Origin: a virus
Lineage: Duplodnaviria; Caudoviricetes
Virus record (IMG/VR): IMGVR_UViG_3300033273_000162
Coordinates: 1 to 52,777 of that record
Reading direction: 5' to 3' (one strand)
DNA length: 52,777 nucleotides
The notes under the pieces are model-generated. The model was not told the DNA's origin. It did not search any database and was given only the letters and a program-made list of their open reading frames with translations. The first letter of the stretch is position 1, and each line of letters starts with the position of its first letter. A program made the translations under genes and the position numbers. This document shows positions 1 to 43,700 of the stretch, piece after piece.

Positions 1-53
1 TGTTCGCCACTGTGACCTTGGTAGTAAGTTGGAAAGTAGGGACTGGTAGGCAT
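1..53 (-). CDS. gp14: Neck protein gp14, N-terminal fragment (runs off the window edge)
   Basis: ATG at 53-51, 1 nt after the gp13 stop; reads MPTSPYFPTYYQGHSGE, typical of cyanophage gp14; matches T4 synteny gp13-gp14. Not in the ORF track. Confidence 0.8.
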   Translation of the reverse strand, partial: MPTSPYFPTYYQGHSGE

Positions 54-54
54 C

Positions 55-855
55 TTATCCGATCATATCCATTGGTGGGATTGCATACTTGCTGAGAACT
101 TCGCTTTCGATTTTCTCAATTTCTGCTAGTGCGTCTGTGTATAGTTCTCTACCATTAAGAGTAATACCACCTGGCAACTGAACGTTGTTATACTTAATCA
201 AGTTTTGACCCCACTGCTTCTTCATGAGAGCAGTAGCATACTTCTTGACAAACATATCATTGTACATCTCAGTAGCATCTGTAGGATCGATAAGACGATG
301 ACACTCAATCAGGATGTTAGATCCTTCGTTGAGAAAGTCTTTGTCTAGATCCATATAGAGACGATCACGACGCATGGTGTATCTAAACTGCTGGAATGAT
401 CCATTGTTTAGGACCATATCCAGTGTCTCTAGATACTGCTTGTTCATATAATAGTTGAGGATATCAAGTGATCCGAATGCATAGAGATCATTCAAGAACA
501 GTTGATACTCAACACCAAAAAGATTGGAACGGATTGAGTTGCTGACAAGACCAAATACTCTAGTGATACCAACCACATGATCTGGGACTGGAATATAATT
601 TGTTGTTTCTTTCCAGTCAGTTGTGCCACTAGTTGTTGTTATGCTAGCAGCAAACCTTGTCTTATCGTCAGCAGTGATTTCATGGAATAGATATGCACGC
701 TCCATACCGTTGTAACAGTTCTCTTGGAAGAACTGAATGGTGTCATCAATAACGTTATTGACCTGTTCGTCATCGATATTAACTTGTAGGACAGGCTCAC
801 CAAGCTGTCTCTTACAATATGTGATGAGTTCAGCTCTTGAATTTGGAGATGCCAT
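55..855 (-). CDS. gp13: Neck protein gp13
   Basis: PNSRAELITYCKRQLGEPVLQVNIDDEQV and KKQWGQNLIKYNNVQLPGGITLNG are hallmark T4-like gp13 motifs. ATG at 855 is preferred over the TTG at 864. Confidence 0.95.
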   Translation of the reverse strand: MASPNSRAELITYCKRQLGEPVLQVNIDDEQVNNVIDDTIQFFQENCYNGMERAYLFHEITADDKTRFAASITTTSGTTDWKETTNYIPVPDHVVGITRVFGLVSNSIRSNLFGVEYQLFLNDLYAFGSLDILNYYMNKQYLETLDMVLNNGSFQQFRYTMRRDRLYMDLDKDFLNEGSNILIECHRLIDPTDATEMYNDMFVKKYATALMKKQWGQNLIKYNNVQLPGGITLNGRELYTDALAEIEKIESEVLSKYAIPPMDMIG

Positions 856-3521: not shown

Positions 3522-4176
3522 AATCACCCATCCCAATCATACTGTATCTATCTTCATCCACATACCAGTTTTCTAAAATCCATGGTGAGTGGAAGAAACC
3601 TCCATTGTAAAACAATAATGTATTATACTCCATTGGAGCGATGCAAGACAACTCCCAGTCTTCGTCCCCTCTGAAGTTCTTCCATTGTTCATAACCAGTC
3701 TCTTTGATTGTTTTATCAAAGAGATAACTGTTTTCCTCTTCTGTCAATTCATTGACATGTATCTTACCTTTGTAAGACCAGAAAGCAGTTCCACCCAAAC
3801 ATTGTTTATTGAACCAGATATTCCAAACACCTGGCCAAGCATCTGAATGTGGTAAGTGTGCATTCTTTTTCATCTGCATGTTGCCGTTGTAGATATTACA
3901 AGACACTCTTGCAGGATTCCAGTTGCATACATTATCACGAACAAAGTTAGCAATAAACTTCGCTGCCCATGGTGGAACATCTTGTCTCCATCCAGGAGAA
4001 TATGTACTATCCCTAACAGCAGGAAAATTCAAGAGAAGTTCTTTGTATTCTTCTGGATACTTGAGAAAGTTTTTAATTACTTTAAATTTTGTTCCATCGT
4101 AGATTGCATCTTCTACTTTAGCATCATCATTTATCTGACATATAGATGAAAGATAATCATTATCAAATCGCTTCAT
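3514..4176 (-). CDS. DUF6445-like putative Fe(II)/2OG oxygenase
   Basis: VIKNFLKYPE, SPGWR, PHSD (HxD), GGTAFW, YNTLLFYNGGFFHS, terminal R. Confidence 0.75.
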   Translation of the reverse strand: MKRFDNDYLSSICQINDDAKVEDAIYDGTKFKVIKNFLKYPEEYKELLLNFPAVRDSTYSPGWRQDVPPWAAKFIANFVRDNVCNWNPARVSCNIYNGNMQMKKNAHLPHSDAWPGVWNIWFNKQCLGGTAFWSYKGKIHVNELTEEENSYLFDKTIKETGYEQWKNFRGDEDWELSCIAPMEYNTLLFYNGGFFHSPWILENWYVDEDRYSMIGMGDYE

Positions 4177-4838
4177 TGTCTTTCAATTCTGAAACTGTAG
4201 GAGTGGTTATAGATGTAACGTGGCATCACATTGAATGAAATTGAAATTCTGTTGTCTTCTTTATTATCAATATATCCATGAGATATGTTTGACTGCCAAA
4301 GAAGAAGATCGCCTTCTGTATAATCTACATGTGCTCCCCATGTATTATACTTTGTTGGATATTTGATGGGTATATCAATAGTCTGCATAACAGAGTTTTC
4401 TGGATTGAAGTCTTTGTTCTTGAATCCAATAGGAGCATGTAATCCTTTGATGAAATTTACATAGTAAGTTCCAGACACATATGCATTTGCATGTGTGTGA
4501 TTAAACTGCTCTCCACCAGCATCACATTTATTGAGCCAGCAATCAGTGACGATCATTTCTCCCTTGAGTTCATACCCAAGAACGTTCTCAACATAGTCAA
4601 GAGACTTTTCTGTAATCCACTCTTCAAACCACTTGAATTCTGGAATGTCAAGTAAATTCATATTATCTCTGTTAAAATAGTGCGCCAATGCACCATTATC
4701 AACATTTACTTTCTTGATCTTTTCGTCTTCATCAACTTGGTGCAGAAGACCGAAACACTGATCTTTAAGTTTTTGAGTTCTTTCATCGTCTAGTCTATAT
4801 TTCCCAATCGCTCTTGGGAAGATTTCAATTACTGCCAT
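4173..4838 (-). CDS. Putative Fe(II)/2OG oxygenase (TIGR02466-like)
   Basis: IEIFP, CWLN...HTHANAYVSGTYYV...EGDLLLWQSNISHG...RISISFN. Confidence 0.9.
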   Translation of the reverse strand: MAVIEIFPRAIGKYRLDDERTQKLKDQCFGLLHQVDEDEKIKKVNVDNGALAHYFNRDNMNLLDIPEFKWFEEWITEKSLDYVENVLGYELKGEMIVTDCWLNKCDAGGEQFNHTHANAYVSGTYYVNFIKGLHAPIGFKNKDFNPENSVMQTIDIPIKYPTKYNTWGAHVDYTEGDLLLWQSNISHGYIDNKEDNRISISFNVMPRYIYNHSYSFRIERQ

Positions 4839-12356: not shown

Positions 12357-15300
12357 TCAACCCTCCTCTTCTACTGATAGTTCGACTTCAACCTCTAGTG
12401 GATCGATATCCTTACGGGTTCCTTGGACGAAGTAGAAGGATTCTCCTCCACCAATGAAGATCTTATTATCTTCAATCTTCTCAACCCATGCATGATGATC
12501 ACCGATTGGAGTGAGTTGAACTGTGATGCTGTCCTCATCAACGAGAGCAGTCCAGTATTCTGGAAGTTCAACAACATCACTTGCCTTACCACGAACATAG
12601 ACGCCATGCTCAGGACCTTCAAGAGATCCATAACGTAGTTCGTGATTTTCCTTAGTTGGGTGAGGAATTACGAACGACTTGCTGGTAGCACCAAACGAAC
12701 CATTTACATAAAGTTTGTAACTGGTGTTTGTGTTGCTCTGGTTGATCGCAACGTTCTGACTTGCGTCCATGACAAGGGCAGTTGGACCGCCATTTGTCTT
12801 GAAGTGCCACTTGCGATTACCATCAATACGCTCGACGATATCACCAACTGCAGTTCCAGGACCATAGTTGCCTGCGCTATTACAATATGCCATTCTATAA
12901 CCAATAGTAGTGCTACCATTTTTGTGAATGATAGAACTATAACCACCAGATTGACCTGCAATGGTAATACCATCACTATTATCTGCAGGAAGATCAAATC
13001 TAGATGTTCTATTATTGAATACGCGGAAGATACTCGTAGTAAAGTTAGTGTTATAAACACCTAAGAGTTCAGTACCAGTTGTACTATTTGTAGTAGAGAA
13101 CCTTGCGTTCCAGGAAGAACCAGATCCTCTAAACTGAAGACCACCAGCAAAAGTAAAGTATTTGTTGCTAGCAGAAACGTTGATTGCATTATCAACAGAT
13201 GGATTTAAAGTCAGCGTACCAGTCATGGTATCGCCAGACTTCAATACGTTGAGAGAAGCAGCACCAGTTAGATTACCGCTGATTGTTCCTGCAGTGAAGT
13301 TGCCATTGGCATCACGAAGAACAGCGGTATTTGCTACATTGTTGCTAGCAAATGTAATGTTACCAGCGTTCCAAATAACTTGGTTGTTGATTGTGAAGTT
13401 ATTTGCTCCACCAACCTGAACGTTAAGTGATCCAGATCCAGTTCCAGCATTACCACCAGAAGCAAAGATACCAGCGTTATAAGAAGCAGCAGATGTGGAA
13501 GAGTTGAACAGAACTGCAGGAGTAGAAGCAGTTCCATCCTTTCTTCCAAGTCTCAAGTATGCAGTACCGCCATTACTTTCTAACTTAGCAACATCATATG
13601 TTCCAGTTTCATTGATCCAGAACTCTTGGAATGTAACTCTGTTACCAGCAGTACCAATAGTCTCTGCGGTATTAAATGTACCAGTGTTCAGGTAACCAGT
13701 GATCTGAGTCCAGTTAAGGCTGGTATCACCATCTGGAGATGTGAATGGATTGACATTCAGAATGACAATAGTACCAACACCCTGTGCGTTTGCATCATAT
13801 AGATTGACGGTTTGACCGTTCAGGAATGGAGTGGTAGTTAGTGCTTGTCCAGAAATATAGATGTCATAGTAGGTCTTGTTTGTTACCTGCTTGATTGTAA
13901 TTGCGTTTTGGAATTTCTTCTCGGACAAATATCCATTAATTCTGGTATCACTGATTTGATAGAAGTTAATGTTTCTAGCATCCTGATACCAAGCACCTTG
14001 TCTGTTATCAAGTTTGTCAGAGTCCATTCCAGTACCAGGACCATCGGACAATTGAGTCCAGACCTTATACCAGTTAGACCAAGTTGCAACACCAGTTCCA
14101 CTACCACGTAACCAAACATTATTATTGTCTGTAAATGCAAGTTGTCTTACACCACCATCAGCAGTAGCATCACTACCCTTACCTCTAATGGTCATGACTG
14201 CGTTAGCAGTACCACCATCAGCAAGAACGTTTGCGCTATTGTTGATGAAATTGACAACCGCACCTTCAGAGAAGGTATCTGGAGTAGGATCTGATGTTGG
14301 GTTGGATGTTTGAGATCTTAGTCTTAGTGTATTACCAGACTGTCCAGAAATATTAATATCATAAGAACCAGATAGTCTTAGTTTGTTCAGAGTACCAGAA
14401 GTTATGTTGAATGCATTCTGATAGAATGCGCCCTGCTGACCATCAAGTAAGTCAGCATCAAGACCACTTTGAGATCCTGTCTTCAGTTCAACAGATCCAT
14501 TGCCAACCAATCCAATATTGAATTGAGACTTCTTGAACTTAGCAACACCAACCGTTCCATATGCGTCACCAGAAGTTGTGTTTTCTGTTACTCTCAGGAT
14601 ATCCATTTGGATATCACCAAATCCTCTAATAGCAGTATTAACTTTAGCAGATAGGTTACCAGCAGTTGTTGGATTTCCTAGTGCAGGAGGAATTGTAATA
14701 GCAAAGTCATTCTGGAATCCAGAACCACCAGAAGTAACTACAACACTATCGATAGTTCCATTTCCATCAGTTGTGAAATTAGCATAGAGTCCAGTGCCAG
14801 TACCGCCTTGGATAGGTCCAACATTCTTGAGATCAAGGTTTGCTGTGTATCCAGATCCACCGCTGATGATAACAATATCATCAATGTACTCGTTCTTAGT
14901 ATTATTGGTATCAATAATAATTGGTGGTTCGGGTCTATCAAACTGTAAGAACGTTCCTGCAGGAATTGCTTGAGTCAGTGGATTGTTAATCTCAATTTCA
15001 ATATATCCTGTTTTATCAGTAATCGAACTGACAGTTGTGTTTGGATCAATACCACTATTGGTAGAAGATACTGTATGTCCAACTAAAATATTAGTTCTAG
15101 CAGAAACAGGGAAAGTTAGTTTGTTTCCGCTATTTGCAGCGGCAAGGAATGTTGCTTCGAAGTATCTCTGCTCAGCACCCTTGATCGTTTGAACAGCAGG
15201 AGAATATGTCTGATCACCACGTAGGAAAGTGAAGGAGTTTGCAGCATCCGAGTCGAATGCTAGTCTTGCTGTTGCAATAACACCAGATGTAATATCACCT

Positions 15301-18300
15301 GCTGCAACTTGGTTAGAAGATAGGGATACCCAGTTGAGATCATCGAATGCAGAGGTATTAACAACTCTGTTCAAATTAACAGTTACCGAATTGACATCAT
15401 CAATCGTATCTGTATCTACAATCTTAATGTTATTAACAATGTCACCATATAGTCTGCTCTCAATCAGTGCGTTAGCAGTTGCTTGAGTTCCACCACCAGG
15501 AGGTGCAGAGAATGTGATAGTTGGTGCAGAAGTATAACCATAACCACCTGTGTAACCGTTAGATTCGATGATAGTTACTGTGACAACTTGACCATTTGCA
15601 ATAGTACAAGTCGCTGCAGCGGTAACACCTGTAGATGGCGAAGTAATCGATACAGTTGGAGCTGAAGTATATCCAGAACCAGAATCTGTAATCGAGATAG
15701 AATATACAACACCTTGGCGATATTCTGTGGTCTGAATAGTACCACCGCTATTACTTCCAGTGTAAATGCTTCCAACAGCACCAAAGTCCAGTGCGGCATT
15801 TACAGTGATTCCTAGATATAGACTATCAACATCATTGTCTAGGATATAAGATGCTGCAGGGACAGGTGGATTTGCATTAGGATTTCCCTCAACAATTGCA
15901 ATGTCACCAGCAAGAGCACCCTCTAGTTTCAGTCTTTCTGCATCACTTGCAACAGTGAAGACACTGAATGGTCTGAGTGCTGGAATCTGGTCGATAGAAA
16001 TCTTACCAGAATCAGTAAGTTCAACCAGTGCTCTAGGAACTGGGTTCGTAGAATATGCTTTGTTGATGTATGGACCGAGATTGTTGGTAATATAATCCTT
16101 AACTGCTTTCTGTGTTGGTAGAACACTATTGCTAGATGTTGCACCACCCAAAGTATTGTCATCACTAAATCCAGTAACAACAATGTCACCACCTTTCAGT
16201 TTCAAGAATTCAACTTCAGAGATGGTAACCGTACCAGTAAAGGTAATTGCACCAGTTCTGTTCTCAATCTTAGCGAAGTAACCAACCTTGAAGTCACCTA
16301 GTTCGTCAGTACCAGAAGTATAAACACGACCGTAGTTTTCAGATACCTGCTCATTTGCTTCGATCTTAGTACCGCCGTTTTCTGGTAGTGCATTGTAGTC
16401 AGTACCTGCACCAGCAAATTCCCAAGTGTGGGAAGAACTATTAACAATAGATGGTCTGTGTAGTCTTACAGTAGCACCACTAAATGTTCCTAGGTCTGTA
16501 TTGACAACATTGTTAGTTGATTTATCTCTGAATACTGCTGCCTGATTGACAGTAAATGTTGCAGTGAATGGAGGACCAGAAGTTACATTATTGACACTAT
16601 CAATAAAGTAATCTACTGCAGAGTTCTCGCTCTCATATCCATCAATCTTGAGAATGTAGTGCTCTAGAGGTTCTCTTCCAAGACCACTAACTGTAAATTC
16701 AGTGAATCCTGTACCAGTTGCGGAACCAATTCCAGTGATGTTACCAACGTCGAATGGATACTCTTCTGCTCTATATCCTTTCGCTCTAAGAGCAAATGTA
16801 CCAAAGTTGGTAGCGGAGTTAGTAACAGATGCGTATCCACCACTGTCACAGAAGATACCATCTTGACAGAAGATAACGAAGACCGAAACCAACTGAGTGT
16901 AACCATCATTGACAACCTTGTAACCTGTACCACCAAAGGAAACAATCGTGAATGCCGAAGCAACCATCGATTTGCCCTGTGCTGGGTTAGAAACAGATCC
17001 ATCTTCCTCAATACCTGGGAATGGAACGTTTGGTTTAGCACACTTGTTACCATCGATTTCACAACCATTACCACCCTTGAAGGAGATAATAGAAGAGTTC
17101 TGAATGTATGGAGATGCCTCAATGTATGGTAGATCATCCCATACACCTCTAGGTGTGATATACTTGTTATCTGCGTCGTATAGAATTGCCTGTGTAGGTC
17201 TGTTTGGTGTTGGATCATACAGAGTTCCGTATGTCTGAGTTACACTGCCTCCCGCTAGAATGTCATCTAGAGTCTGGAACGAAGTTGTAATTGCAGTTGC
17301 GACATCGGAACATGCAGGGGATTGACCTTGACCATATACAGAAACTGCTTCTGCAACTTCTGTTCTTACAAACGTATGTACAGACTGTGGTAGGTGCTTA
17401 ACTGCATTTGTTGAAGCAGTAATAAAAGTATGTGTTGTTTGTGGTTCATGCTTGATAGCATTCTGTGCTGCAGCAACAAAAGTATGAGTGGAAGTATCGC
17501 TAGAAGTACCAACGTTAATTGTAAATGTTCCGTCTTGACGCTCAATAGCATTTGCCGCAGCACTTACAAATGTATGTGCTCCAGTGTAGGAAGAAGGACC
17601 AACATTAACATCAAACGTGTTTGGTGTTACGTTAGAAATTTGTAACCAGCGACCAGATGGATAATCATAACCAGCACGAGGATATGTCTTCTGAACACTG
17701 TTGTCATCTAACTCACATGTATAAGTCAAAGATCCATCAGCAACCTTGACATAATCACCATTGCTGAATCCATGATTAGTAACAGTAAATGTTACAATGC
17801 CTGTAGATGCATCATATGGTGCATTTGTTGGTGTATGTTGAGTTGAACCAACGGAAGTGATAGCAATAGACTGACCTGCATAAGGATCAGTTCCAGGACG
17901 AGGATATGTGTGAGTGGAATTATTTCCATCTAAAGCACATGTGAAGGAGAATGAGTTGTCTGTGAGTACAACACTACGTCCAACACCTAGACCATGCTGT
18001 CCTACTGTGACAGTCATGTCACCAGTAATAGGATTGTATGTAGCAGCAGATGGAGTGAAATACTTATTGGGACCAGAGGCACCAACATTTAAAGTAATAG
18101 TTGTATCAGTTTTTGCTGTGATAGGAATAGATCTACCAGCATAAGGATCAATACCAGGACGTGGATATGTCTTCTGCGACTGGTTGTTATCCATGTCACA
18201 GGTGAATGTCAGTGAATTGTCAGCAAGTACAATTCCCTCATCAATATCCAGTGTATGAGTTCCGATTGTTAGTACAAGATCTCCAGTTGCTGGGTCATAT

Positions 18301-21300
18301 GTTGCATTGGTTGGAGTGAATTGTACATCAGGACCAGAAGCACCAACATTAACAGTAAATGTGTTTGTGTCCGTAGCAATAACGTTTAGCTGATTAGCAA
18401 AAGCTGTTTGTCCATTCTGTGGATACTTATGCTCGGTCTTATTGCCGTCCATTGTACATGTGAATACAAAGGACTCTGGTTTAATAGTGATACTATCCGC
18501 AGTTGTTACGCTGTGTCCAGCACTTGTAATTACAAAGTTACCATTGGCAGGATCATATGTTGCAGAAGTTGGAGAGATCTGTGCTTTTGCTGGAGTTGCA
18601 GCAGCATCAATCGTGATGTTCCAATCTTCAAACTTATCTACAGTCGAAGTAACTTCAACAACATCATAAATCAGAATAGTAGAATTAGCAGCAGCACTTA
18701 CGAATGTATGTGCTACGCCAGCAGCAGAACCAGCATTACCTACATTACAAGTAATAATTGTAGATGGACCATTGACGCTTACTGCGCTAATTGCAAGACT
18801 CTTTCCATTGTTTCTATCTGTTGGAGAAGGACTTGCTAGGTTTCCACCACCATTAGAAGTACAACTGAATGTTAGTGCTCCCTCCTTAAATGCAATTCTA
18901 TCGTTGGTTGTGATAGGTGCATTAGGAGTAGGAATAGTTACGGTTACTTCACCGCTAGTGGAGTTGTATGTGGCGTTTGTTGGAGTAGTGCCAAGATAGT
19001 TACCATTGGTCCAGTTACGCATTGCATTGATTGCGTAATCTCTTGCTTTGGTAAATGCGTATCTGGTAGCTGGTAGTTCGGATGCAGGAACTCCAGTTAG
19101 TTGTCCGCCTGTGTAGTAAAGATTACCAGCAGAAACAATACCAGAGTTTCCTCCTAGAATTAGGTCTCTTCTTAGTCCAGCAAGAATATACTTAACATCA
19201 CGCTTACACTTAGTTCTATCTGGATTGTTTAGTGCTAGAGATGGATACTCTTCTAGAGTATCTGCTAGTGCTTGCTCTGCAATTAGATCAATGTTTCTAG
19301 CAATCAAGTAAGATCCATCTTGGAATCTAGACGTTGCTTGATTTGAAATGATATCAGTAAAGAGATATCCTAGGGTATCAATAGCAGATGCAACGTTAGC
19401 ACAAGTTGCACCAGCATTTCCTCCTGTCGTATCTTCCGTAACAGTAGGATCTTTGTATAGTGGGAGACTAGAATATACAGGTACAAAATCATCTTCTGCA
19501 TACAAACCAGAACCTGTGTTCCAGTTTCTCATTGCTAGGATAATGAGTTCTCTGGCTCTTTCGTATGCCCTTACAGTTTCTGTAATTTCATTATTGACAT
19601 ATCCAATCTGAGTTCCATCAACATAACGCTTTGCTGCTTCAACAGTATGGTAGTTTCCACCATACTCCAAGTCCATAATAATAGCATTAATAAAGTGCTT
19701 AACGTCTCTGTAGCACTTAGAGTCACCATTTGGAATATTAAATCCAGGATAGATTTTTTCTCCCTGTGTGCAAGACAGGAGAATATTTTCAACCTTTACG
19801 GTTTCTCCACTTGTTAGACCTGGGATTGCATTTGCTAGGGTGATTGTACCTATACCAGTGCCATTAGCATATGAGAAACCTGTAATGTTATACTGAGTTC
19901 CACCATATGTTACAGTACCGCCACTTACATAAGTATGTGAAAATGAGTTTGGTGTAGTATAAACATCAAACGTGGTGCCAGAAACATTCCATGCAGTGAG
20001 CCACTTTTGTGCAAATTCATCATTGATTTGCTTGACTACTTCATCTGCAATGAAATCTGTGTTCTGGCGAATTAGATTAACAGCATCTTGATATCTTCTC
20101 TCGACAAATGGTTGCTCAGAGAATTTGTTTGGAGAGTTTAGAAGCGATAGTGTTAGATAGTGAGATGCCGAACTTACAGTACAATTTGAAATCTGAGTGA
20201 TTCCTGCTGGACTTGCAATATCTTTTGCAATGACAAATCTTCTCGATCTGCCGTCAGCGTCATATAGTACCTTGAATACTCTTTGCTTTCCGTTGAGAAC
20301 CGATAGATCAGGTCCGCTGGTAGGCATACCAGAGATTGTAATCTCTTCGTTCTCTTTGAAATTGTGAATGTTTAGTCTGGTGTTTGACTCACCACCCGAT
20401 AAGATGTTAGTATATACGACTACACCACCATATTCTGGATCAGTGTAGTATGTTGGATCAATTTCAACTTGTACAATTGGTAGTGTAGTAGTTGTATCTG
20501 TTCCAGTAGAAATAACTTCACCTTCTGCTCTAATAGACAGAATGTCTAAAGAAACGAAAGATCTGAGATCATTGAATACAATGGGATCTGTTGGACTTGC
20601 TTGAGTTGCTTCTTCTGCATATGTCAATGCATTTGCATCTGCACTTACAAAAGTATGTACAGATGTATCTTGAGAAACTCCAACATTAACAGTAAATGTG
20701 TTAGTAGTTACTGCGCTAATAGACAACCATCTCTTATATGCAAAATCTGGTTGTCCATCACCAGCAGCAGGTCTTGGATATCTATGCTGTGATGCATTAT
20801 TATCCAATGCACAAGTGAATACTAGGGATTCTGGACTGATTAAGATTTTATCAGATAAGTTAAATCCGTGGTTTGCAACAGTGAATACAGCAAGACCAGT
20901 TGCTGGATCATAAGTTACATTTGTTGGTGTATAAGGTGTGCCTCTGTAATATTCAAAAGTTTCACCAAGGTTAAAGGAACCAGAGAGAACATCTACATCA
21001 ATTGAACCAGAGACGTATGCATCTCCCCCTGTGGTGCTATCGTACTGTACTTGGAGAACTTCACCCCTTGCACCAGTGTTTTCACCGCTTACAAGCGTTC
21101 CTACTTGCAGCGGAGCGGGTAAGTTTGTTCCTGTGTTACTTCCGAAAGTAACTCTAATTCTAGGTGGTCCAAAGATCTGGTGACCAATTGGGAATCTTCT
21201 GCCAAAGTCTCCACCAGCATTGGGGTCATAATAAACCCTTTGCTTGTCGTCAAATGTTACAGCAAAGTCCCAGGTGAATTCAGAGTCACCAAAGGAATCG

Positions 21301-22490
21301 ATAGCATCTCTAAATGTAATACCATTGATATAGTTTTTATCCCCAAACTTAAACATGTGTTTGCGGGGATTGCTTGGTCTGATAATTACCAGACGAAGGT
21401 TGTCACCAATAATAGAACAATCTGGTGGAATGGAAATTGGGTTATCTTCAACGTAATTACCACCAGCGATGATAACTGATTCTTTGACTCCAACTGATTG
21501 AGATGCAATCTGACATGCTCTCTTAATACTTCTTACAGGAGCAGCAGCAGATCTACCGTCGTTTTCATCATTACCAATTTGCTCGGAAACATAGACACGA
21601 CCACCAACGTCATTTGTTGCTAGGTTTAGAACATATTCGGTAGTAGCAACTTTGGTCGATTTATCACCAAGTAAAGGAGTTACCGATCTTGGGAAGATAC
21701 CATCTCCAGTCTGTCCATAGTATGGAAGGAGAGGACTATCTTCTCTATAACCTTCGTGTCTTAGATTTACTGTACCACTTAATACATCACCATCAGTGTG
21801 TGTAGGGGGAGTGGTTCCAGTTTGACCAGTATTGGTAGCTCTATAGATGTTACCTTGGAGATAAACAAAGGCATTTTCAAATAAAGTGACGTTTGGTTGC
21901 CACTGAGTACCACTAGAGTTCTGATAGATTTTAAAGTTTGGTGCTCTAAATTTAGCATCAGCAGTAACAAAGTTGTCGATGTCTAGGTTTAGAATTCTCG
22001 CCGTGTCTGAAATGATAGACGTAGAAGTTCTAATAGCACCATTAACGTCAAATTCATATGCAATTTCGTCAAGGAATGCTTCTGCCTGAGCACCAACACC
22101 ATTACCACCAGTAATAGTTACAGTAGGAGCAGTAGTGTAACCAAAACCAGGATCATCAACAACAATAGCAACGATTGCTCCAAATACTGGATTCGTCGAT
22201 GCTGTTGCTTGAATTCCACCTTCTTCAATTGGTAAGTCTGGAGCACTTAATGTAATAGATGGAGTTGTTGTGTATCCAGAACCAGGAGCAGTAACGGTAA
22301 CCTTTTCAACCTTTTTTCCCGTTCTATTAACACCAACACGAGGCAATTGGGTGCTTGGATCTAACTGCACCCTCATAATTTCTTTTTCGTCCGACCCAAC
22401 ACCCGAACGGATTGTCAATTCATCCGAACCAAGAATGACTGGTTTTTGCGAAGAAATTCTTTGCTTATCCGCATTAAATTCTAAACTCAT
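12357..22490 (-). CDS. Giant multidomain tail fibre (3377 aa)
   Basis: GSGYT.AP repeats, split pectin-lyase-like beta-helix, TPTNATYDP repeats, LDADLLDG fibre motifs, and the C-terminal ATSKSFVIPHP...GSLEGPE...LPEYW..LVDEDSITVQLTPIG domain typical of phage fibres. Confidence 0.88.
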   Translation of the reverse strand: MSLEFNADKQRISSQKPVILGSDELTIRSGVGSDEKEIMRVQLDPSTQLPRVGVNRTGKKVEKVTVTAPGSGYTTTPSITLSAPDLPIEEGGIQATASTNPVFGAIVAIVVDDPGFGYTTAPTVTITGGNGVGAQAEAFLDEIAYEFDVNGAIRTSTSIISDTARILNLDIDNFVTADAKFRAPNFKIYQNSSGTQWQPNVTLFENAFVYLQGNIYRATNTGQTGTTPPTHTDGDVLSGTVNLRHEGYREDSPLLPYYGQTGDGIFPRSVTPLLGDKSTKVATTEYVLNLATNDVGGRVYVSEQIGNDENDGRSAAAPVRSIKRACQIASQSVGVKESVIIAGGNYVEDNPISIPPDCSIIGDNLRLVIIRPSNPRKHMFKFGDKNYINGITFRDAIDSFGDSEFTWDFAVTFDDKQRVYYDPNAGGDFGRRFPIGHQIFGPPRIRVTFGSNTGTNLPAPLQVGTLVSGENTGARGEVLQVQYDSTTGGDAYVSGSIDVDVLSGSFNLGETFEYYRGTPYTPTNVTYDPATGLAVFTVANHGFNLSDKILISPESLVFTCALDNNASQHRYPRPAAGDGQPDFAYKRWLSISAVTTNTFTVNVGVSQDTSVHTFVSADANALTYAEEATQASPTDPIVFNDLRSFVSLDILSIRAEGEVISTGTDTTTTLPIVQVEIDPTYYTDPEYGGVVVYTNILSGGESNTRLNIHNFKENEEITISGMPTSGPDLSVLNGKQRVFKVLYDADGRSRRFVIAKDIASPAGITQISNCTVSSASHYLTLSLLNSPNKFSEQPFVERRYQDAVNLIRQNTDFIADEVVKQINDEFAQKWLTAWNVSGTTFDVYTTPNSFSHTYVSGGTVTYGGTQYNITGFSYANGTGIGTITLANAIPGLTSGETVKVENILLSCTQGEKIYPGFNIPNGDSKCYRDVKHFINAIIMDLEYGGNYHTVEAAKRYVDGTQIGYVNNEITETVRAYERARELIILAMRNWNTGSGLYAEDDFVPVYSSLPLYKDPTVTEDTTGGNAGATCANVASAIDTLGYLFTDIISNQATSRFQDGSYLIARNIDLIAEQALADTLEEYPSLALNNPDRTKCKRDVKYILAGLRRDLILGGNSGIVSAGNLYYTGGQLTGVPASELPATRYAFTKARDYAINAMRNWTNGNYLGTTPTNATYNSTSGEVTVTIPTPNAPITTNDRIAFKEGALTFSCTSNGGGNLASPSPTDRNNGKSLAISAVSVNGPSTIITCNVGNAGSAAGVAHTFVSAAANSTILIYDVVEVTSTVDKFEDWNITIDAAATPAKAQISPTSATYDPANGNFVITSAGHSVTTADSITIKPESFVFTCTMDGNKTEHKYPQNGQTAFANQLNVIATDTNTFTVNVGASGPDVQFTPTNATYDPATGDLVLTIGTHTLDIDEGIVLADNSLTFTCDMDNNQSQKTYPRPGIDPYAGRSIPITAKTDTTITLNVGASGPNKYFTPSAATYNPITGDMTVTVGQHGLGVGRSVVLTDNSFSFTCALDGNNSTHTYPRPGTDPYAGQSIAITSVGSTQHTPTNAPYDASTGIVTFTVTNHGFSNGDYVKVADGSLTYTCELDDNSVQKTYPRAGYDYPSGRWLQISNVTPNTFDVNVGPSSYTGAHTFVSAAANAIERQDGTFTINVGTSSDTSTHTFVAAAQNAIKHEPQTTHTFITASTNAVKHLPQSVHTFVRTEVAEAVSVYGQGQSPACSDVATAITTSFQTLDDILAGGSVTQTYGTLYDPTPNRPTQAILYDADNKYITPRGVWDDLPYIEASPYIQNSSIISFKGGNGCEIDGNKCAKPNVPFPGIEEDGSVSNPAQGKSMVASAFTIVSFGGTGYKVVNDGYTQLVSVFVIFCQDGIFCDSGGYASVTNSATNFGTFALRAKGYRAEEYPFDVGNITGIGSATGTGFTEFTVSGLGREPLEHYILKIDGYESENSAVDYFIDSVNNVTSGPPFTATFTVNQAAVFRDKSTNNVVNTDLGTFSGATVRLHRPSIVNSSSHTWEFAGAGTDYNALPENGGTKIEANEQVSENYGRVYTSGTDELGDFKVGYFAKIENRTGAITFTGTVTISEVEFLKLKGGDIVVTGFSDDNTLGGATSSNSVLPTQKAVKDYITNNLGPYINKAYSTNPVPRALVELTDSGKISIDQIPALRPFSVFTVASDAERLKLEGALAGDIAIVEGNPNANPPVPAASYILDNDVDSLYLGITVNAALDFGAVGSIYTGSNSGGTIQTTEYRQGVVYSISITDSGSGYTSAPTVSITSPSTGVTAAATCTIANGQVVTVTIIESNGYTGGYGYTSAPTITFSAPPGGGTQATANALIESRLYGDIVNNIKIVDTDTIDDVNSVTVNLNRVVNTSAFDDLNWVSLSSNQVAAGDITSGVIATARLAFDSDAANSFTFLRGDQTYSPAVQTIKGAEQRYFEATFLAAANSGNKLTFPVSARTNILVGHTVSSTNSGIDPNTTVSSITDKTGYIEIEINNPLTQAIPAGTFLQFDRPEPPIIIDTNNTKNEYIDDIVIISGGSGYTANLDLKNVGPIQGGTGTGLYANFTTDGNGTIDSVVVTSGGSGFQNDFAITIPPALGNPTTAGNLSAKVNTAIRGFGDIQMDILRVTENTTSGDAYGTVGVAKFKKSQFNIGLVGNGSVELKTGSQSGLDADLLDGQQGAFYQNAFNITSGTLNKLRLSGSYDINISGQSGNTLRLRSQTSNPTSDPTPDTFSEGAVVNFINNSANVLADGGTANAVMTIRGKGSDATADGGVRQLAFTDNNNVWLRGSGTGVATWSNWYKVWTQLSDGPGTGMDSDKLDNRQGAWYQDARNINFYQISDTRINGYLSEKKFQNAITIKQVTNKTYYDIYISGQALTTTPFLNGQTVNLYDANAQGVGTIVILNVNPFTSPDGDTSLNWTQITGYLNTGTFNTAETIGTAGNRVTFQEFWINETGTYDVAKLESNGGTAYLRLGRKDGTASTPAVLFNSSTSAASYNAGIFASGGNAGTGSGSLNVQVGGANNFTINNQVIWNAGNITFASNNVANTAVLRDANGNFTAGTISGNLTGAASLNVLKSGDTMTGTLTLNPSVDNAINVSASNKYFTFAGGLQFRGSGSSWNARFSTTNSTTGTELLGVYNTNFTTSIFRVFNNRTSRFDLPADNSDGITIAGQSGGYSSIIHKNGSTTIGYRMAYCNSAGNYGPGTAVGDIVERIDGNRKWHFKTNGGPTALVMDASQNVAINQSNTNTSYKLYVNGSFGATSKSFVIPHPTKENHELRYGSLEGPEHGVYVRGKASDVVELPEYWTALVDEDSITVQLTPIGDHHAWVEKIEDNKIFIGGGESFYFVQGTRKDIDPLEVEVELSVEEEG
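17340..20935 (-). repeat. Six copies of a ~95-105 aa beta-rich domain (TPTNATYDP..G...FTC..D.N...YPR...VNVG...HTFV) inside the giant fibre
   Basis: Copies at about 20935-20625 and 18990-18680, plus four nested copies in 18580-17340; visible in the translation. Confidence 0.9.
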
Positions 22491-22554: not shown

Positions 22555-23061
22555 TTATGACCAGGCAACAGCAACAATACTGACTTGTGCGATCCACTTA
22601 ATATTTGCTGTTGTACCGCTTCTAGTTGTGCTATAACTGAATACATTCGCTGTTCCAGTATCATATGGAACAACTGTCCAAGTCTCTCCATCAGGAATAT
22701 TGTCACGAATAATAGTTGTTAAACTAGATACGGTGGATACATCTCCTGCCCCATCACACTTAACTACGTTTTCAATTTTTGTTGAAAAAACACCTGCTCC
22801 AGTTGGATTAACTGCGATAATATTTCCAGTGACAAAGTTAATTGTGTTATTTTCCAGAGAAGGTGGAGTGATTCCATCCAAAGTTAATACTACAGTATTA
22901 AGACCACGCAAAATATATTCTGTTTTATTTACATCACCAAAGTTTGAATTTTTTAATTCAAAACTATTGATGTTTGTTAGATCTAGTGTATCGGTTACGA
23001 GTCTTGTTTGATTGACTCCAAATCCGCCTTCAGAATTGACGGACGTAATTGTAGTTGCCAT
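22555..23061 (-). CDS. Small virion structural protein (168 aa)
   Basis: Beta-rich T/S/V composition, NSEGGFGV N-terminal motif, located between two fibre genes. Confidence 0.65.
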   Translation of the reverse strand: MATTITSVNSEGGFGVNQTRLVTDTLDLTNINSFELKNSNFGDVNKTEYILRGLNTVVLTLDGITPPSLENNTINFVTGNIIAVNPTGAGVFSTKIENVVKCDGAGDVSTVSSLTTIIRDNIPDGETWTVVPYDTGTANVFSYSTTRSGTTANIKWIAQVSIVAVAWS

Positions 23062-40700: not shown

Positions 40701-43700
40701 CCCAGTTTCCAGATTTATTTGGATTTTGCTGAGTCTTTTCTACAAGTCCTCTGCCTTCAGTTAGAATAGTATCTACAATATCATGATAGGTGTTGAGAGC
40801 ACTTTCTACCTCAGCACAAACTGGAGTAACGGAATCTACAAGAACATTTGGATCTGTTGTTGGCAATTGATTCTTCATTGCCTGAATCATTAGATTCTTG
40901 GCGTATTCAAATGTAGCAACAGTTTCTGTTAGTTGATCAGAGATGTAGTATAGTTGCTCTCCATATGGATACTCATTCTTTCTATAATAAAGTTGAGCGG
41001 CAGTAACGATTTTTTCATTGCCACCAAACTTAAGATGATAAACATATGCATCAATGATATGTCCAATATCTCTACCACACTTAGTAGAAAGAGAACCCCA
41101 ATTCAGAGAAGGATATTGTCCTTGTGCCCAAGTCAAAGACTGAGAAATGATATATTCTCTATTTGCTACAATGAGATTAGCAGCATCGTAGAATGTACCA
41201 TTATTAACACCACTCCAAGAGAATGTTGCTTGGTCAGTTCCAGAGAAACTGACAGGAACTGTAACCGTGACTCCAGGAGGAACATCGAAAGTGTCTCCTA
41301 CTGGAACTTGACCAGTAGTTGTAGCAATTGTTCCGTCACTTGCACTTCCAGTAAGAGTAGTAGTTCCTACAGCAGCTCCACCGCCACCACCAGAGTTTGC
41401 TAATGCAACATTGCTTACTGTAACTTTAGTATCACTATCGATAGATACAATCTTGGTTCCAGATGGATAAGATCTACCAGAACTTACAAACATGCCAATT
41501 GCAAGATTGTCAGTGCTTGTAACTGTTATCTCATTAGAACCTTGTAGATAATTAACAGAAACATCAGTAAAGTCCCAATTTCTAATTGCAAGTTTTGCCA
41601 GTCTGGTAGCATAAGAGAAAATACCACTAGACTCTGTTCTATTGTTTTGAATGTAAAGATAATCGCTACTCTGGTTAAAGATAGATGTGTAGTCAATAGT
41701 TTTTACATTACCACCAAATCTAATGTCATGCTGATATGCATCTAGGACAAATCTTATGTTTTCTTCGTAATCATCTTGCTTTGTGCTCCAATCCAAAGAT
41801 GGATATGTTGCTTTGGCATAACCAATAGTTTCGTTAATAATAAAGTCAATATTTCTTTCAATTTGATTTGCAGCATCAATCCAGACACCATTGCGTTGGA
41901 AAATATTTCTTAGTTTTCTTAGGTGTTTTGTATTGTATTGTGAGTCTTTAAACTGGAATACTTTACCATAGAAAGTAACACCTTTATACGATGTTGTTTC
42001 ACCACCATCACCAGTCAATTTAGTTCCTGGTCCTAGTGGAGGGGCAGAGAAAATAATTTGATCTCCAGAAATAGTATAAGCAACATCTGGTTCTTGCAGA
42101 ACTCCATCGAGTGTTACAATCAAACCTTTAGAATCTGCTGGGAAGAAAGGAACTCCTTGATCATTAATAATCTGGAAAGATGTGGTTCCTTGGAGTCTTC
42201 CATCAGTATCGTAGTATCCATCAAATGGAGCACCTAGAGTAAATTCAAATGCTCTTACTTCATTGAATAAAAATTCACTGGTAGCAGCAGAACCTCTTCC
42301 TCCACGAACTCTCTGACTCTCTACAGTCTGAATTGTTTGTGTAGTTACTTGTTTTGTGCTTTCAATTGTAATTTTGTTCTTATTTGGATCCCAAAGTTGT
42401 ACAACACTAAAGTGCTGCGTTCTGGGAGCAGCTGCTGGCATTTCAGTATCAGCAGTAGCTTCTACATCTACTTGACCAAATAGTTTAAAACCAGCTGGGT
42501 GAGTTGTTGATTTAATCAACTCCCTCCACTGATCAATTGGAGTCTTAGATTTTACAACGTAAGAATAGTCTTGATAGAAATCACTATCAATCATCTTCTG
42601 GTTAGATACTCCCAAACGTCCTCTGTCGGAAGTGTAATAACCTAGGTTATCATAGAAACTAGTAATCTGCTCTGTAAATGTGCTAGTATATACTGCTGTT
42701 ACAATTCCAGAAATTGGGTTCAATAGAGATTCAATAGCAACATTCTCACGAACAATGCCCTGAATGTCTTTTAGTTTTAATAGTCTGGAACCAAACCTCC
42801 ATTCAGTAACTTTTGCTCTGAATACTTCTACACCATTAACTCTCTGAACTACTGTTTCCCCTCTGCTGAAGTTTCCAGTATAATCCTTAAGGGAAACAAC
42901 ATAATTTGAAGAGAATGTAGAGGATACAGTTTTGTCTAGATGGAATGCACCACCATTAGATACAAAACTGACACTTTGTGGAATACCAATAGTAGAACTA
43001 TCAGCAAACGCTTCAATGTCACTTTCAACAATTTCGATTGTTGGTGCTTTAGTATATCCTCTTCCAGGAGATCCAACTGTTAATGAGAAAATTTCTCCAT
43101 TACGTACAACAACATTAAATGTTGCATCAACACCATCTCCTTCAGTAATGATAACCTTAGGATTGACGTAACTAGATCCTTTATCAGTTACAGTGACACC
43201 AGAAATAGTTTGAGAAGCGATATCAAACAAGACAGTTGCTTTTGCTCTGGAATCGGTATTAATATCTGCACCAACAATTGTTGGCACTTTTTTGTAGTTT
43301 AGTCCTAGATTAATAATACTTACATCGTTAATCTCACCAACTGCAAATTGACCAGTTGTTGTGTATGTAATGGTTCCAGAACCATCCCATAATGGTTCGC
43401 TGGGAATATCATAGACAAAACGGTTTGACGTGACATAATTCAACGTCTTGACACCCTGCAAAGGATCTGTTACAATCTTAAAGTATGCACCTTCAGAATT
43501 AACAACATTCTTCTTATCGAAATAATAGAAGTTTGTAAAGTCAGTTCCTCTCTTTGTTTGGTAATTGTTATCTGCTAGTCTAGACCCAAATCCAAACTTA
43601 ACATCAGTAAATGCCCCAGAATTACCAGGGAGAATCGTCGATTCAGTTTTTTCTGCTGTAATTAGATTGTAGTTCTTACTTGGACTGATATCAAAGTAAG

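What the first reader, a model, noticed from the sequence alone, without database searches (positions are those of the whole stretch)
17250..20100. Phycobiliprotein-like domains with both bilin-site cysteines inside the giant tail fibre
Seen: two helical units. Unit 1 is RYQDAVNLIRQNTDFIADEV..[beta insert]..SKCYRDVKHFINAIIMDLEYGGN...AYERARELIILAM...TCANVASAIDTLGYLFTDII. Unit 2 is RFQDGSYLIARNIDLIAEQALADTLEEYPSL...TKCKRDVKYILAGLRRDLILGGNSG...AFTKARDYAINAM..[inserts]..ACSDVATAITTSFQTLDDIL. Established (recalled consensus): phycocyanin/phycoerythrin subunits read R.DAVN.I..NA..IV..A...L..E.P.L, then (K/A)C.RD....LR...Y.L.AG(G/D) with Cys84 and the chromophore-contacting Arg-Asp, and in beta subunits DCS.L.SE.A.YFD with Cys153/155. 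Order, spacing and both cysteines match. Many cyanophages encode bilin synthesis (ho1, pebS, pcyA) and a CpeT-type lyase with no clear phage substrate; T-type lyases serve the beta-155 site (none of these genes is in this window). Inference: the virion may display globin-fold bilin-binding domains, making it pigmented or light-responsive (some cyanophages adsorb in a light-dependent way), or it has co-opted the fold structurally.
Basis: partly seen in the sequence, partly recalled or inferred. Interest (0 to 1): 0.92.

Follow-up and report, generated by a model that had tools for sequence, protein, structure and literature searches.

The report
Phycobiliprotein-like domains in cyanophage tail fibre
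A giant tail-fibre protein of a T4-like virus of marine cyanobacteria contains two domains that are true distant relatives of the host's pigment-carrying phycobiliproteins and keep their pigment-attachment residues, so the virus particle may itself carry a bile pigment, which nobody has yet tested at the bench.

Summary

**Homology and fold**
- The two units are homologous to each other.
- They belong to a large phage repeat family with a near-invariant Cys-x-Arg-Asp, up to 31 copies per protein.
- A profile of that family finds almost only phycobiliproteins in the PDB: 37 of 39 hits, best E 1.1e-4.
- hhalign to real CpcA/CpcB gives 86-88% probability.
- An AF2 model of the window's unit 1 matches a phycoerythrin chain at Z 16.6. 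The top 7 of 48,161 chains are all phycobiliprotein or phycobilisome chains.

**Bilin binding is not shown; the support is circumstantial**
- In 19 cultured cyanophages, the lyase gene cpeT occurs only in domain-bearing genomes: 13 of 15 against 0 of 4.
- cpeT lies just upstream of a domain-bearing fibre gene in S-PM2, Syn1 and S-RSM4.
- Jumbo phages with giant arrays carry hemO and a bilin reductase.

**Against**
- PF00502 scores stay below the Pfam threshold.
- Bilin reductase genes do not track the domain among cyanomyoviruses.

I found no paper describing this. This scan has noted the same thing on other DNA: 35 findings in at least 32 genomes.

The parts
12357..22490 (-). Giant tail-fibre-type ORF, 3377 aa, that holds both units
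   Evidence: PHROG phrog_5342 'tail fiber protein', E 0; lies in a T4-like baseplate-wedge module
20013..20105 (-). Unit 1, first (kinked) helix pair, equivalent to phycobiliprotein helices A/B; contains RYQDAVN
   Evidence: AF2 helices q7-20 and q22-37; A1 profile hit at 20010-20099
19749..20003 (-). Unit 1 beta-sandwich insert in the B-E loop (aa 830-914)
   Evidence: AF2 strands q41-125; VIA matches to phage tail-tip and baseplate beta domains, Z 6.9-7.3; homologous to the beta repeats in unit 2's insert
19530..19724 (-). Unit 1 helices E-F-G with Cys926-Tyr-Arg-Asp (Cys codon 19713-19715)
   Evidence: A1 profile hit at 19515-19721, 57.2 bits
19347..19403 (-). Unit 1 last helix (H-like), preceded by Cys1030 (codon 19401-19403)
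   Evidence: AF2 helix q242-259; VIA alignment of model 1..260 runs to the C-terminus (residue 184) of 5aqd_M; the Cys is kept in 17 of 17 aligned relatives
19020..19331 (-). Unit 2 helices A/B, E, F, G with Cys1095-Lys-Arg-Asp (Cys codon 19206-19208)
   Evidence: A1 hit at 19005-19343, 72.3 bits; hhalign to CpcB positions 34-102; PDB phmmer hit to phycoerythrin alpha, E 8.4e-4
17316..19019 (-). Insert of 568 aa between helices G and H of unit 2: array of beta modules of the '...FTC..D.N...YPR' type
   Evidence: sequence and internal BLASTP; not folded here
17256..17312 (-). Unit 2 distal last helix with Cys1727 (codon 17310-17312)
   Evidence: same motif as unit 1's last helix and kept in the 12 relatives that have this region; that it packs back onto unit 2 is inferred from unit 1, not modelled
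40855..41217 (-). Third intact unit (Cys-Gly-Arg-Asp), in the neighbouring 3419-aa baseplate-region ORF 37741-48000
   Evidence: A1 hit, 93.0 bits
41563..41880 (-). Degenerate unit without Cys-x-Arg-Asp, in the same 3419-aa ORF
   Evidence: A1 hit, 34.5 bits; weak PF00502 hit at 41791-41934, E 9.7e-4

Best explanation
**Shown.** The two units are phycobiliprotein-type globin domains (helices A to H, without the N-terminal X-Y hairpin), built into the shaft of a T4-like cyanophage tail-fibre protein. Beta-sandwich modules are inserted into their loops: the B-E loop in unit 1, the G-H loop in unit 2. They are members of a large, phage-borne 'CxRD repeat' family that is a distant homologue of phycobiliproteins. 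The family keeps the Cys-x-Arg-Asp triad, which in phycobiliproteins attaches and hydrogen-bonds the bilin. This cyanomyovirus subfamily also keeps a second Cys before the last helix and an Asp that aligns with CpcB Asp39, that is, a beta-153-like site.

**Inferred, about 0.5.** During assembly in the infected cell the domains are covalently loaded with a bilin, either taken from the host or made by phage heme oxygenase and bilin reductase. The CxRD site may self-attach, as ApcE and BBAG proteins do. The second Cys would be served by the phage's T-type lyase CpeT. The fibre would then be a biliprotein.

**Speculative, about 0.25.** The pigment makes fibre deployment or adsorption respond to light.

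The confidence given (0.5) is for the statement including bilin loading. For homology and fold alone it is about 0.9.
For: **Homology**
- A1 profile against the PDB: 37 of 39 hits are phycobiliproteins, best E 1.1e-4, with repeat positions 13-69 aligned to positions 38-104 including Cys84.
- hhalign to CpcA/CpcB: 88.4% probability at E 2.8e-6, and 85.8% at E 5.3e-6.
- PF00502 is the commonest Pfam match among members, 10 of 94.

**Fold**
- Window model: pLDDT 80, pTM 0.78.
- It matches 5aqd_M at Z 16.6, rmsd 2.8 A, 157 residues aligned. The top 7 of 48,161 chains are all phycobiliprotein or phycobilisome chains; the next unrelated row is 11.8.
- An independent triple-repeat model gives Z 10-11.9 to allophycocyanin, the ApcE bilin domain, phycoerythrin and photocobilin.

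**Site conservation**
- In 2149 distinct units: Cys 97%, Arg 94%, Asp 99%.
- 57% of all Cys in 92 giant proteins lie in CxRD.
- CXRD is the published chromophore motif, and BBAG-1/-3 with CXRD self-attach bilin (PMC10151467, passages read).

**Lyase link**
- Of 19 cultured cyanophages, 15 hold the domain and 13 hold CpeT. All 13 are domain-positive, and 0 of the 4 domain-negative genomes hold it. Fisher one-sided p 0.0039, or 0.015 after dropping the podovirus and merging P-HM1/2.
- cpeT lies 0.7-1.4 kb upstream, on the same strand, of a domain-bearing giant fibre ORF in S-PM2, Syn1 and S-RSM4. Those ORFs carry the second-Cys motif.

**Pigment supply**
- Of 6 records at least 80% complete that hold giant arrays, 5 carry a bilin reductase.
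- G002, G003 and G007 carry an adjacent hemO-reductase cassette and G003 also CpeT; psbA was searched and not found in G002 and G003, and was not searched in G007.

**Light**
- S-PM2, P-HM1 and P-HM2 adsorb only in the light and have the domain.
- P-SSM2 and P-SSP7 adsorb in the dark and lack it (PMC6628666, passages read).
Against: - No computation here shows a bound bilin.
- PF00502 scores are 12-13 bits against a cut-off of 22.2, and no member passes it.
- Foldseek gave no hit at E<=0.001.
- Sequence-level alignment stops at helix E, so the second-Cys equivalence rests on position in a predicted fold.
- Unit 1 has Cys-x-Gln-Asp instead of Cys-x-Arg-Asp in 5 of 17 relatives.
- The family also has near-invariant residues that CpcA/CpcB lack: Asp at +14 (98%) and Tyr at +30 (98%). 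These may mean a different ligand or a structural network.
- One unit in the window has lost CxRD.
- Bilin reductase does not track the domain in cyanomyoviruses: 6 of 15 against 2 of 4, p 1.0.
- P-SSM2 and S-SSM7 make bilin but lack the domain.
- Only 2 of 21 reductase-bearing viral contigs, all incomplete, hold the repeat.
- The complete Pelagibacter phage Mosig has hemO and a reductase but no repeat.
- The co-occurrence counts are small and the genomes are related.
- The minimal 108-aa repeats lack helix H.
Confidence: 0.5

Rival explanations
1. Structural co-option. The phycobiliprotein fold was captured, or is anciently shared, and is now only a stackable helical spacer of fibres and baseplate arms. 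The Cys-x-Arg-Asp, Asp+14 and Tyr+30 form an internal polar network that holds the fold, and no pigment is bound.
For: - Up to 31 tandem copies form rod-like arrays in proteins of up to 6982 aa.
- Minimal repeats of 108 aa lack helix H and the X-Y hairpin.
- The extra near-invariant Asp+14 and Tyr+30 are not in CpcA/CpcB.
- Bilin reductase is not linked to the domain in cyanomyoviruses.
- I found no published report of coloured phage particles.
Against: - In phycobiliproteins the Arg and Asp of CXRD serve the chromophore (PMC10151467). Keeping them at 94-99% while the rest of the unit averages about 20% column identity is unexpected for a spacer.
- A lone, near-invariant free Cys per unit is odd in an extracellular protein that otherwise avoids Cys.
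- This reading leaves the cpeT co-occurrence and synteny unexplained.
Confidence: 0.33
2. The domains bind something other than a bilin, for example heme or another tetrapyrrole, a metal ion through the Asp/Asp/Cys face of the helix, or a host surface molecule.
For: - Asp+3, Asp+14 and Cys lie on one face of the same helix by their spacing (inference).
- The fold class also holds heme-binding globin sensors, which match at Z 8-11.
Against: - The best sequence and fold matches are bilin-binding members, not heme globins.
- No proximal-His-type conserved position is seen among the near-invariant columns.
- The linked genes are a bilin lyase and bilin synthesis genes.
Confidence: 0.1
3. Chance or convergent likeness: a helix-loop-helix that happens to resemble phycobiliprotein helices B and E, with no common descent.
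For: - Single-sequence E-values are borderline: 8.4e-4 in the PDB search and 0.11-0.17 in Pfam.
- Helical bundles often give middling Z scores (tool note).
Against: - Three independent lines agree on the same register: HMM profile, hhalign and two AF2 models.
- Z 16.6 over 157 residues stands about 5 units above the first unrelated fold.
- 37 of 39 PDB profile hits are one family.
Confidence: 0.04

Closest known systems
Phycobiliprotein beta subunits (CpeB, CpcB; Pfam PF00502)
   Same: - Globin-type fold, helices A to H: Z 16.6 to the 184-aa phycoerythrin chain 5aqd_M.
- Cys-x-Arg-Asp on helix E, aligned to CpcB Cys82-Leu-Arg-Asp.
- An Asp aligned to CpcB Asp39.
- A second Cys 19 residues before the end of the aligned last helix, as Cys153 is 19 residues from the end of CpcB (inference from ranges).
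   Different: - No X-Y hairpin, so no alpha/beta heterodimer of the known kind.
- Embedded in a 3377-aa virion protein.
- Loops carry beta-sandwich inserts of 85 and 568 aa.
- Below the Pfam threshold.
- Extra invariant Asp+14 and Tyr+30.
- Pigment not shown.
ApcE (core-membrane linker) bilin-binding domain
   Same: - A phycobiliprotein domain embedded in a large multidomain protein, with an insertion in a loop.
- Matches at Z 13.6, rmsd 2.0 A, 117 residues (4xxi_A).
- Attaches its bilin without a lyase (recalled knowledge, not checked here).
   Different: One such domain per protein, in a cellular antenna complex, not a tandem array in a virion.
BBAGs (bilin biosynthesis-associated globins) of heterotrophic bacteria, and photoglobins/photocobilins
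   Same: - Distant phycobiliprotein relatives outside light harvesting.
- BBAG-1/-3 have CXRD, self-attach bilin and sit beside HO and reductase genes (PMC10151467, passages read).
- Photocobilin is the top fold match of the minimal repeat: 8j2y_B, Z 11.9.
   Different: - BBAGs are small single-domain cellular proteins.
- No BBAG sequence was compared here, so the relationship is untested.
Phage CxRD repeat family (unnamed; parts of PHROG phrog_701, phrog_18802, phrog_4527, phrog_3442)
   Same: The window's units score 57-93 bits against the family profile, and the protein hits these PHROGs.
   Different: The window's subfamily has a longer unit (169-aa spacing) with an H-like helix and a second Cys, and has domain insertions. 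Many family members are bare 108-aa tandem repeats.

Membership tests
Phycobiliprotein (Pfam PF00502 Phycobilisome) | Scores above the curated Pfam gathering threshold (22.2 bits) | tested here: not met
   Unit 2 scores 12.3-12.9 bits, E 0.11-0.17. Ten of 94 family members match at E<=1, best 0.0063, and none passes the cut-off.
Phycobiliprotein (Pfam PF00502 Phycobilisome) | Globin-type fold with helices A, B, E, F, G, H | tested here: met
   AF2 model of aa 790-1180 (pLDDT 80). VIA gives Z 16.6, rmsd 2.8 A and 157 aligned residues to 5aqd_M residues 24-184. The top 7 rows are all phycobiliprotein or phycobilisome chains.
Phycobiliprotein (Pfam PF00502 Phycobilisome) | Cys-x-Arg-Asp chromophore site on helix E (Cys82/84) | tested here: met
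   Cys926-Tyr-Arg-Asp and Cys1095-Lys-Arg-Asp. They align to the CpcA/CpcB motif by HMMER and hhalign.
Phycobiliprotein (Pfam PF00502 Phycobilisome) | N-terminal X-Y helical hairpin that forms the alpha/beta monomer | tested here: not met
   Structural alignments begin at phycobiliprotein residue 24-50. Tandem units of 108 aa leave no room for the hairpin.
Phycobiliprotein (Pfam PF00502 Phycobilisome) | Second attachment Cys of beta subunits (beta-153/155) in the G-H loop | tested here: inconclusive
   Cys1030 and Cys1727 directly precede the last helix and are conserved in relatives. The register with CpcB Cys153 follows only from the alignment ranges. hhalign does not reach this region.
Phycobiliprotein (Pfam PF00502 Phycobilisome) | Covalently bound bilin | not testable with these tools
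   Needs expression with bilin synthesis genes, or analysis of virions.
BBAG (bilin biosynthesis-associated globins) | Globin with or without CXRD, encoded beside heme oxygenase and bilin reductase genes | tested here: inconclusive
   The same genomes hold the hemO-reductase cassette in G002, G003 and G007, but it is not adjacent to the giant gene. The window holds none. No BBAG sequence was compared.
Phage CxRD repeat family (defined here by profile A1) | Match to the 120-position profile, with Cys, Arg, Asp, Asp+14 and Tyr+30 | tested here: met
   Unit 1 scores 57.2 bits (split), unit 2 72.3 bits, and the unit in the neighbouring ORF 93.0 bits. Note that unit 2 and the neighbouring-ORF unit are themselves rows of A1.

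The most novel reading that the evidence does not exclude
Cyanomyovirus tail fibres and baseplate arms are biliproteins. Phage CpeT, and self-attachment at CxRD, load host- or phage-made bilins onto phycobiliprotein-like domains of the virion. The pigment acts as the photoreceptor behind light-dependent adsorption. The same acceptor would explain the 'enigmatic' hemO-pcyX cassettes of jumbo phages that lack psbA.
Probability: 0.3. Interest if true: 0.95.

Novelty: new variant of a known kind. Interest (0 to 1): 0.85.

Why it matters
Three open questions become testable with one construct.

1. Why do many cyanomyoviruses carry a T-type bilin lyase (cpeT)? It has only been assumed to serve host antennae (review PMC10452541, passages read).
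2. What are phage heme oxygenase and PcyX/PcyA for in phages that seem not to infect phototrophs? The literature calls this 'still enigmatic' and suggests an unknown bilin-binding globin as acceptor (PMC11480375, section 14 read).
3. What senses light in light-dependent adsorption? [quoted passage not shown]

If pigment is bound, this would be, as far as my searches show, the first pigmented virion appendage. It would also be a new branch of the bilin-binding globins. If it is not bound, it is still a clear case of a photosynthetic-antenna fold reused as a building block of phage fibres.

Tried and rejected
- **Megablast of the region against 50,697 phage records:** no match. Protein-level search was needed.
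- **Whole-protein Pfam scan:** nothing relevant.
- **Unit 1 alone against the PDB:** no phycobiliprotein hit at E<=10. Its insert breaks the sequence signal.
- **Foldseek of the triple-repeat model against the PDB:** no hit at E<=0.001. Phycobiliproteins appeared only with high 'prob' at E above 1.
- **hhalign:** did not extend beyond phycobiliprotein position 102. The F-H region and the second Cys rest on the predicted fold only.
- **Reverse co-occurrence:** only 2 of 21 reductase-bearing IMG/VR contigs, 8-81% complete, hold the repeat. Pelagibacter phage Mosig, a complete genome, has none.
- **Bilin reductase against domain in 19 cyanophages:** no link.
- **CpeS-type lyase:** absent from 5 jumbo records.
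- **Host of the psbA-less jumbo phages:** not resolved. The capsid protein of G002 is nearest to a Flavobacterium phage and a Microcystis phage, 52% each. Neither organism name appears among the tblastn hits for the repeat.
- **Scan of 185,579 species genomes with one degenerate pattern:** 9 loci, all on MAG contigs, none in an isolate or a cyanobacterium. This shows neither host nor absence.
- **Model coordinates:** not available to scripts. I could not measure Cys-Cys distances or pocket geometry, so a disulfide between the two Cys of a unit is not excluded by measurement.
- **Distal helix of unit 2 (aa 1726-1745):** not modelled together with unit 2.
- **Supplementary files:** closed. The SI trees of PMC10151467, the contig tables of PMC11480375 and published virion proteomes might already list these proteins, and I could not check.
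- **Gasper et al. 2017 on phage CpeT (PMC5336146):** not held.

Full report
**1. What is there.** The window is a 52,777-base IMG/VR record, about 27% of a genome. It carries a T4-like baseplate and fibre module: PHROG baseplate-wedge families for ORFs 48006-49802 and 35862-37682, and a small virion structural protein at 22555-23061. The finding lies in ORF 12357-22490 on the minus strand, 3377 aa, which matches PHROG phrog_5342 'tail fiber protein'. Unit 1 spans aa 799-1048 with an 85-aa beta insert. Unit 2 spans aa 1055-1157 plus a distal helix at aa 1726-1745, after a 568-aa insert. The units are homologous to each other (40% identity over 85 aa, E 4e-14). The insert of unit 1 is homologous to the beta modules that fill unit 2's insert.

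**2. The units belong to a large phage repeat family.**
- A HMMER scan of 1.84 billion representative proteins with aa 790-1180 found 595 proteins at E<=0.001. Many are giants of up to 6982 aa with up to 28 matched stretches.
- In those proteins the motif C.RD recurs up to 31 times, with a spacing of 108 to about 169 aa.
- With a profile of 94 units (A1), I found 2149 distinct units in 499 large ORFs. In these, Cys is 97%, Arg 94% and Asp 99% conserved. Asp at +14 and Tyr at +30 are both 98%. The profile was built from units chosen for C.RD, so these figures lean upward.
- In 92 giant proteins, 1315 of 2310 cysteines (57%) lie in this motif.
- The window holds four units: the two of the finding, an intact one at 40855-41217, and a degenerate one without C.RD at 41563-41880, both in ORF 37741-48000.

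**3. Relation to phycobiliproteins, by sequence.**
- Unit 2 alone hits three phycoerythrin alpha chains in the PDB (best E 8.4e-4), with its KCKRD aligned to their KC.RD.
- It hits PF00502 at only 12.3-12.9 bits, below the 22.2 cut-off.
- The family profile A1 hits 39 PDB sequences at E<=1. Of these, 37 are phycobiliproteins; the other two are a pilin and YvfG. The best is phycocyanin alpha 6jpr_A at E 1.1e-4, always in the same register, with repeat positions 13-69 against positions 38-104.
- PF00502 is the commonest Pfam match among members (10 of 94 at E<=1), but none passes the threshold.
- I fetched real CpcA and CpcB genes from Acaryochloris marina plasmid NC_009928. hhalign gave 88.4% probability (E 2.8e-6, 56 columns) for A1, and 85.8% (E 5.3e-6, 63 columns) for the window's orthologue alignment.
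- In that alignment the window's RFQD Asp aligns with CpcB Asp39, and Cys1095 with CpcB Cys82.
- The alignments stop at phycobiliprotein position 102.

**4. Relation to phycobiliproteins, by fold.**
- Minimal repeat. An AF2 model of three tandem 108-aa repeats from an IMG/VR phage (51-row alignment, pLDDT 81.4) shows four to five helices per unit.
  - Foldseek gave no hit at E<=0.001.
  - The Foldseek-independent search of 48,161 chains put bilin-binding globins on top: photocobilin Z 11.9, far-red allophycocyanin Z 11.5 (model 223-335 against residues 30-142), the ApcE bilin domain Z 10.9, and phycoerythrin Z 10.5.
  - Eight of the top 11 are phycobiliprotein or phycobilisome chains.
- Window units. 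The model of the window's aa 790-1180 (26-row alignment, pLDDT 80, pTM 0.78) gave a stronger result.
  - The 184-aa phycoerythrin chain 5aqd_M matches at Z 16.6, rmsd 2.8 A, 157 aligned residues, model 1-260 against residues 24-184.
  - Six more phycobiliprotein or phycobilisome chains follow at Z 12.6-13.8.
  - The first other fold class is a stressosome globin at 11.8.
- Z 16.6 is above the tool's caution level for helical proteins.
- Unit 1 therefore has helices A to H of the phycobiliprotein fold, without the X-Y hairpin, and with a beta sandwich inserted in the B-E loop.
- Cys1030 sits directly before the last helix (model residue 241; helix 242-259). The alignment ends at model 260 against chain residue 184, the chain's end. 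In CpcB, Cys153 is likewise 19 residues from the end. The register with the beta-153/155 site is thus plausible, but it is inferred from ranges only.

**5. Conservation in the window's own subfamily.**
- In 17 relatives, unit 2's Cys-x-Arg-Asp is kept in all 15 that cover it.
- Unit 1 keeps Cys and Asp in all, but has Gln for Arg in 5 of 17.
- The second Cys before the last helix is kept in all 17 (unit 1) and in all 12 that have the region (unit 2).
- The bare 108-aa repeats of other phages have neither the last helix nor this Cys.

**6. Distribution.**
- tblastn against 50,697 phage records found the domain in 356 and 360 records for two different queries. All are named Synechococcus, Prochlorococcus, Cyanophage or 'Marine'.
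- Giant arrays occur in IMG/VR jumbo phages.
- Five such records lack psbA, among them G002 (252 kb), G003 (271 kb) and G004 (169 kb), which are rated at least 96% complete.
- G002's capsid protein is nearest to a Flavobacterium phage and a Microcystis phage. Their hosts are unknown.
- One pattern scan of 185,579 species genomes found 9 loci, all on MAG contigs.

**7. Links to bilin metabolism.**

(a) *Jumbo phages.*
- Of 30 searched records with giant arrays, 5 hold a ferredoxin-dependent bilin reductase. Two further handles were not held.
- The five are 5 of the 6 records that are at least 80% complete; none of the 24 less complete records holds one.
- G002, G003 and G007 have heme oxygenase directly beside the reductase.
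- G003, G010 and G011 also have CpeT. None has CpeS.
- G003, G010 and G011 are close kin, so these represent about three lineages.
- The exception, G004, is close kin of G003 but 100 kb shorter, so it may be incomplete (inference).

(b) *Cultured cyanophages.* I searched 19 genomes chosen without regard to the domain.

| Class | Genomes |
|---|---|
| Domain present (15) | S-PM2, P-HM2, P-HM1, S-ShM2, S-SM1, P-RSM4, Syn33, Syn19, Syn1, S-SSM5, P-SSM7, Syn9, P-SSM4, S-RSM4, P-TIM40 |
| Domain absent (4) | P-SSP7, P-SSM2, S-SM2, S-SSM7 |
| CpeT present (13) | All domain-positive; the domain-positive genomes without CpeT are S-ShM2 and P-SSM7 |
| Bilin reductase present (8) | 6 of 15 domain-positive, 2 of 4 domain-negative |

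- CpeT against domain: Fisher one-sided p 0.0039, or 0.015 after dropping the podovirus and merging the near-identical P-HM1 and P-HM2.
- Bilin reductase shows no link (p 1.0).

(c) *Synteny.* In S-PM2, Syn1 and S-RSM4, which belong to three genera, cpeT ends 1.4, 0.7 and 1.0 kb upstream, on the same strand, of a giant 'short tail fiber protein' ORF of 3779-4482 aa. That ORF holds the domains and is followed by gp12. These ORFs carry the same second-Cys motif as the window.

(d) *Against.*
- Only 2 of 21 incomplete reductase-bearing contigs hold the repeat.
- Pelagibacter phage Mosig has ferrochelatase, heme oxygenase and a reductase but no repeat.

**8. Light.**
- According to PMC6628666 (passages read), P-HM1 and P-HM2 do not adsorb in the dark. 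S-PM2 adsorption is light-dependent and independent of host photosynthesis. P-SSM2 and P-SSP7 adsorb in the dark.
- The first three have the domain and CpeT; the last two have neither.
- This is five phages and at most four independent lineages, and one is a podovirus. It is a lead, not a test.

**9. Literature.**
- CXRD is described as the phycobiliprotein chromophore motif. BBAG-1/-3 proteins with CXRD self-attach bilins (PMC10151467, passages read).
- The purpose of hemO with pcyX/pcyA in phages of non-phototrophs is called 'still enigmatic', with a phytochrome or a BBAG suggested as possible acceptor (PMC11480375, section 14 read).
- A review states that only myocyanophages carry HO, PcyA, PebS and CpeT, with one PebS exception (PMC10452541, passages read).
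- Four full-text searches found no paper that describes phycobiliprotein-like domains in phage virion proteins:
  - 'phycobiliprotein-like' + phage
  - 'bilin-binding' + virion + phage
  - phycobiliprotein + 'tail fiber' + globin
  - bilin + virion + cyanophage + chromophore

  The first three returned no papers. The fourth returned two, which I judged unrelated from their titles, their abstract openings and (for one, PMC13198022) passages read. The library lacks most subscription journals.

**10. Earlier notes of this scan.** The scan has recorded the same kind of finding on other DNA: 35 findings in at least 32 genomes, with follow-up agents reaching similar verdicts. These are AI notes, not independent evidence. 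What I report rests on my own calls.

**11. Verdict.**
- Homology and fold: about 0.9.
- Bilin attachment: about 0.5. It rests on site conservation, the cpeT link and pigment-making jumbo phages. Against it stand the missing reductase link in cyanomyoviruses, the extra invariant residues and the lack of any direct evidence.
- Light-gated adsorption: about 0.25.

Noticed in passing
window 17316-19019 (-) and 19749-20003 (-): An array of about six beta modules with the recurring pattern '...TPTNATYDPATG...FTC..D.N...YPR', each with its own conserved Cys. They are inserted into the loops of the globin units. The copy in unit 1 resembles phage tail-tip and baseplate beta domains (VIA Z about 7).
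   Followed up: partly
window 41563-41880 (-): A degenerate unit in the 3419-aa baseplate-region ORF has lost Cys-x-Arg-Asp, while its neighbour at 40855-41217 keeps it. It could serve as a natural 'site-dead' control.
   Followed up: partly
window 16780-21600: An earlier first-stage note (e1-6300646) reads the flanks of this region as a pectin-lyase-like beta-helix split by a roughly 1400-aa insertion. If so, the globin units and their inserts are nested inside another domain.
   Followed up: no
window 2790-3536 (-) and 4825-6366 (-); L271 2808-3389; L272 2073-2645: The window encodes a 2OG-Fe(II) oxygenase and a tryptophan-halogenase-like protein. In S-PM2 and Syn1 a 2OG-Fe(II) oxygenase gene sits between cpeT and the giant domain-bearing fibre gene.
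   Followed up: no
L251 (Pelagibacter phage Mosig, MT647606.1 35653-44279): A cultured SAR11 phage of the Kyanoviridae carries ferrochelatase, four 2OG-Fe(II) oxygenases, heme oxygenase and a bilin reductase in a row next to neck genes. It has no detectable CxRD repeat.
   Followed up: partly
L271 (S-PM2 NC_006820.1 168556-173383): The RefSeq record lists 16 tRNA features inside the 11.3-kb 'short tail fiber protein' CDS, all under one locus tag. This looks like an annotation artefact.
   Followed up: no
L232-L240 (genome contigs): Nine MAG contigs hold the repeat; they are probably phage contigs binned with bacteria. They are binned as Rhodobacteraceae (4), Gammaproteobacteria, Proteobacteria, Planctomycetaceae, Verrucomicrobiales and Chitinophagales.
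   Followed up: no
window 12357-12800 (-), C-terminal about 130 aa of the fibre: The C-terminal end matches PHROGs phrog_28536 and phrog_17490, both of unknown function (E 1e-28 and 7e-27). This is a separate conserved tail-end domain.
   Followed up: no
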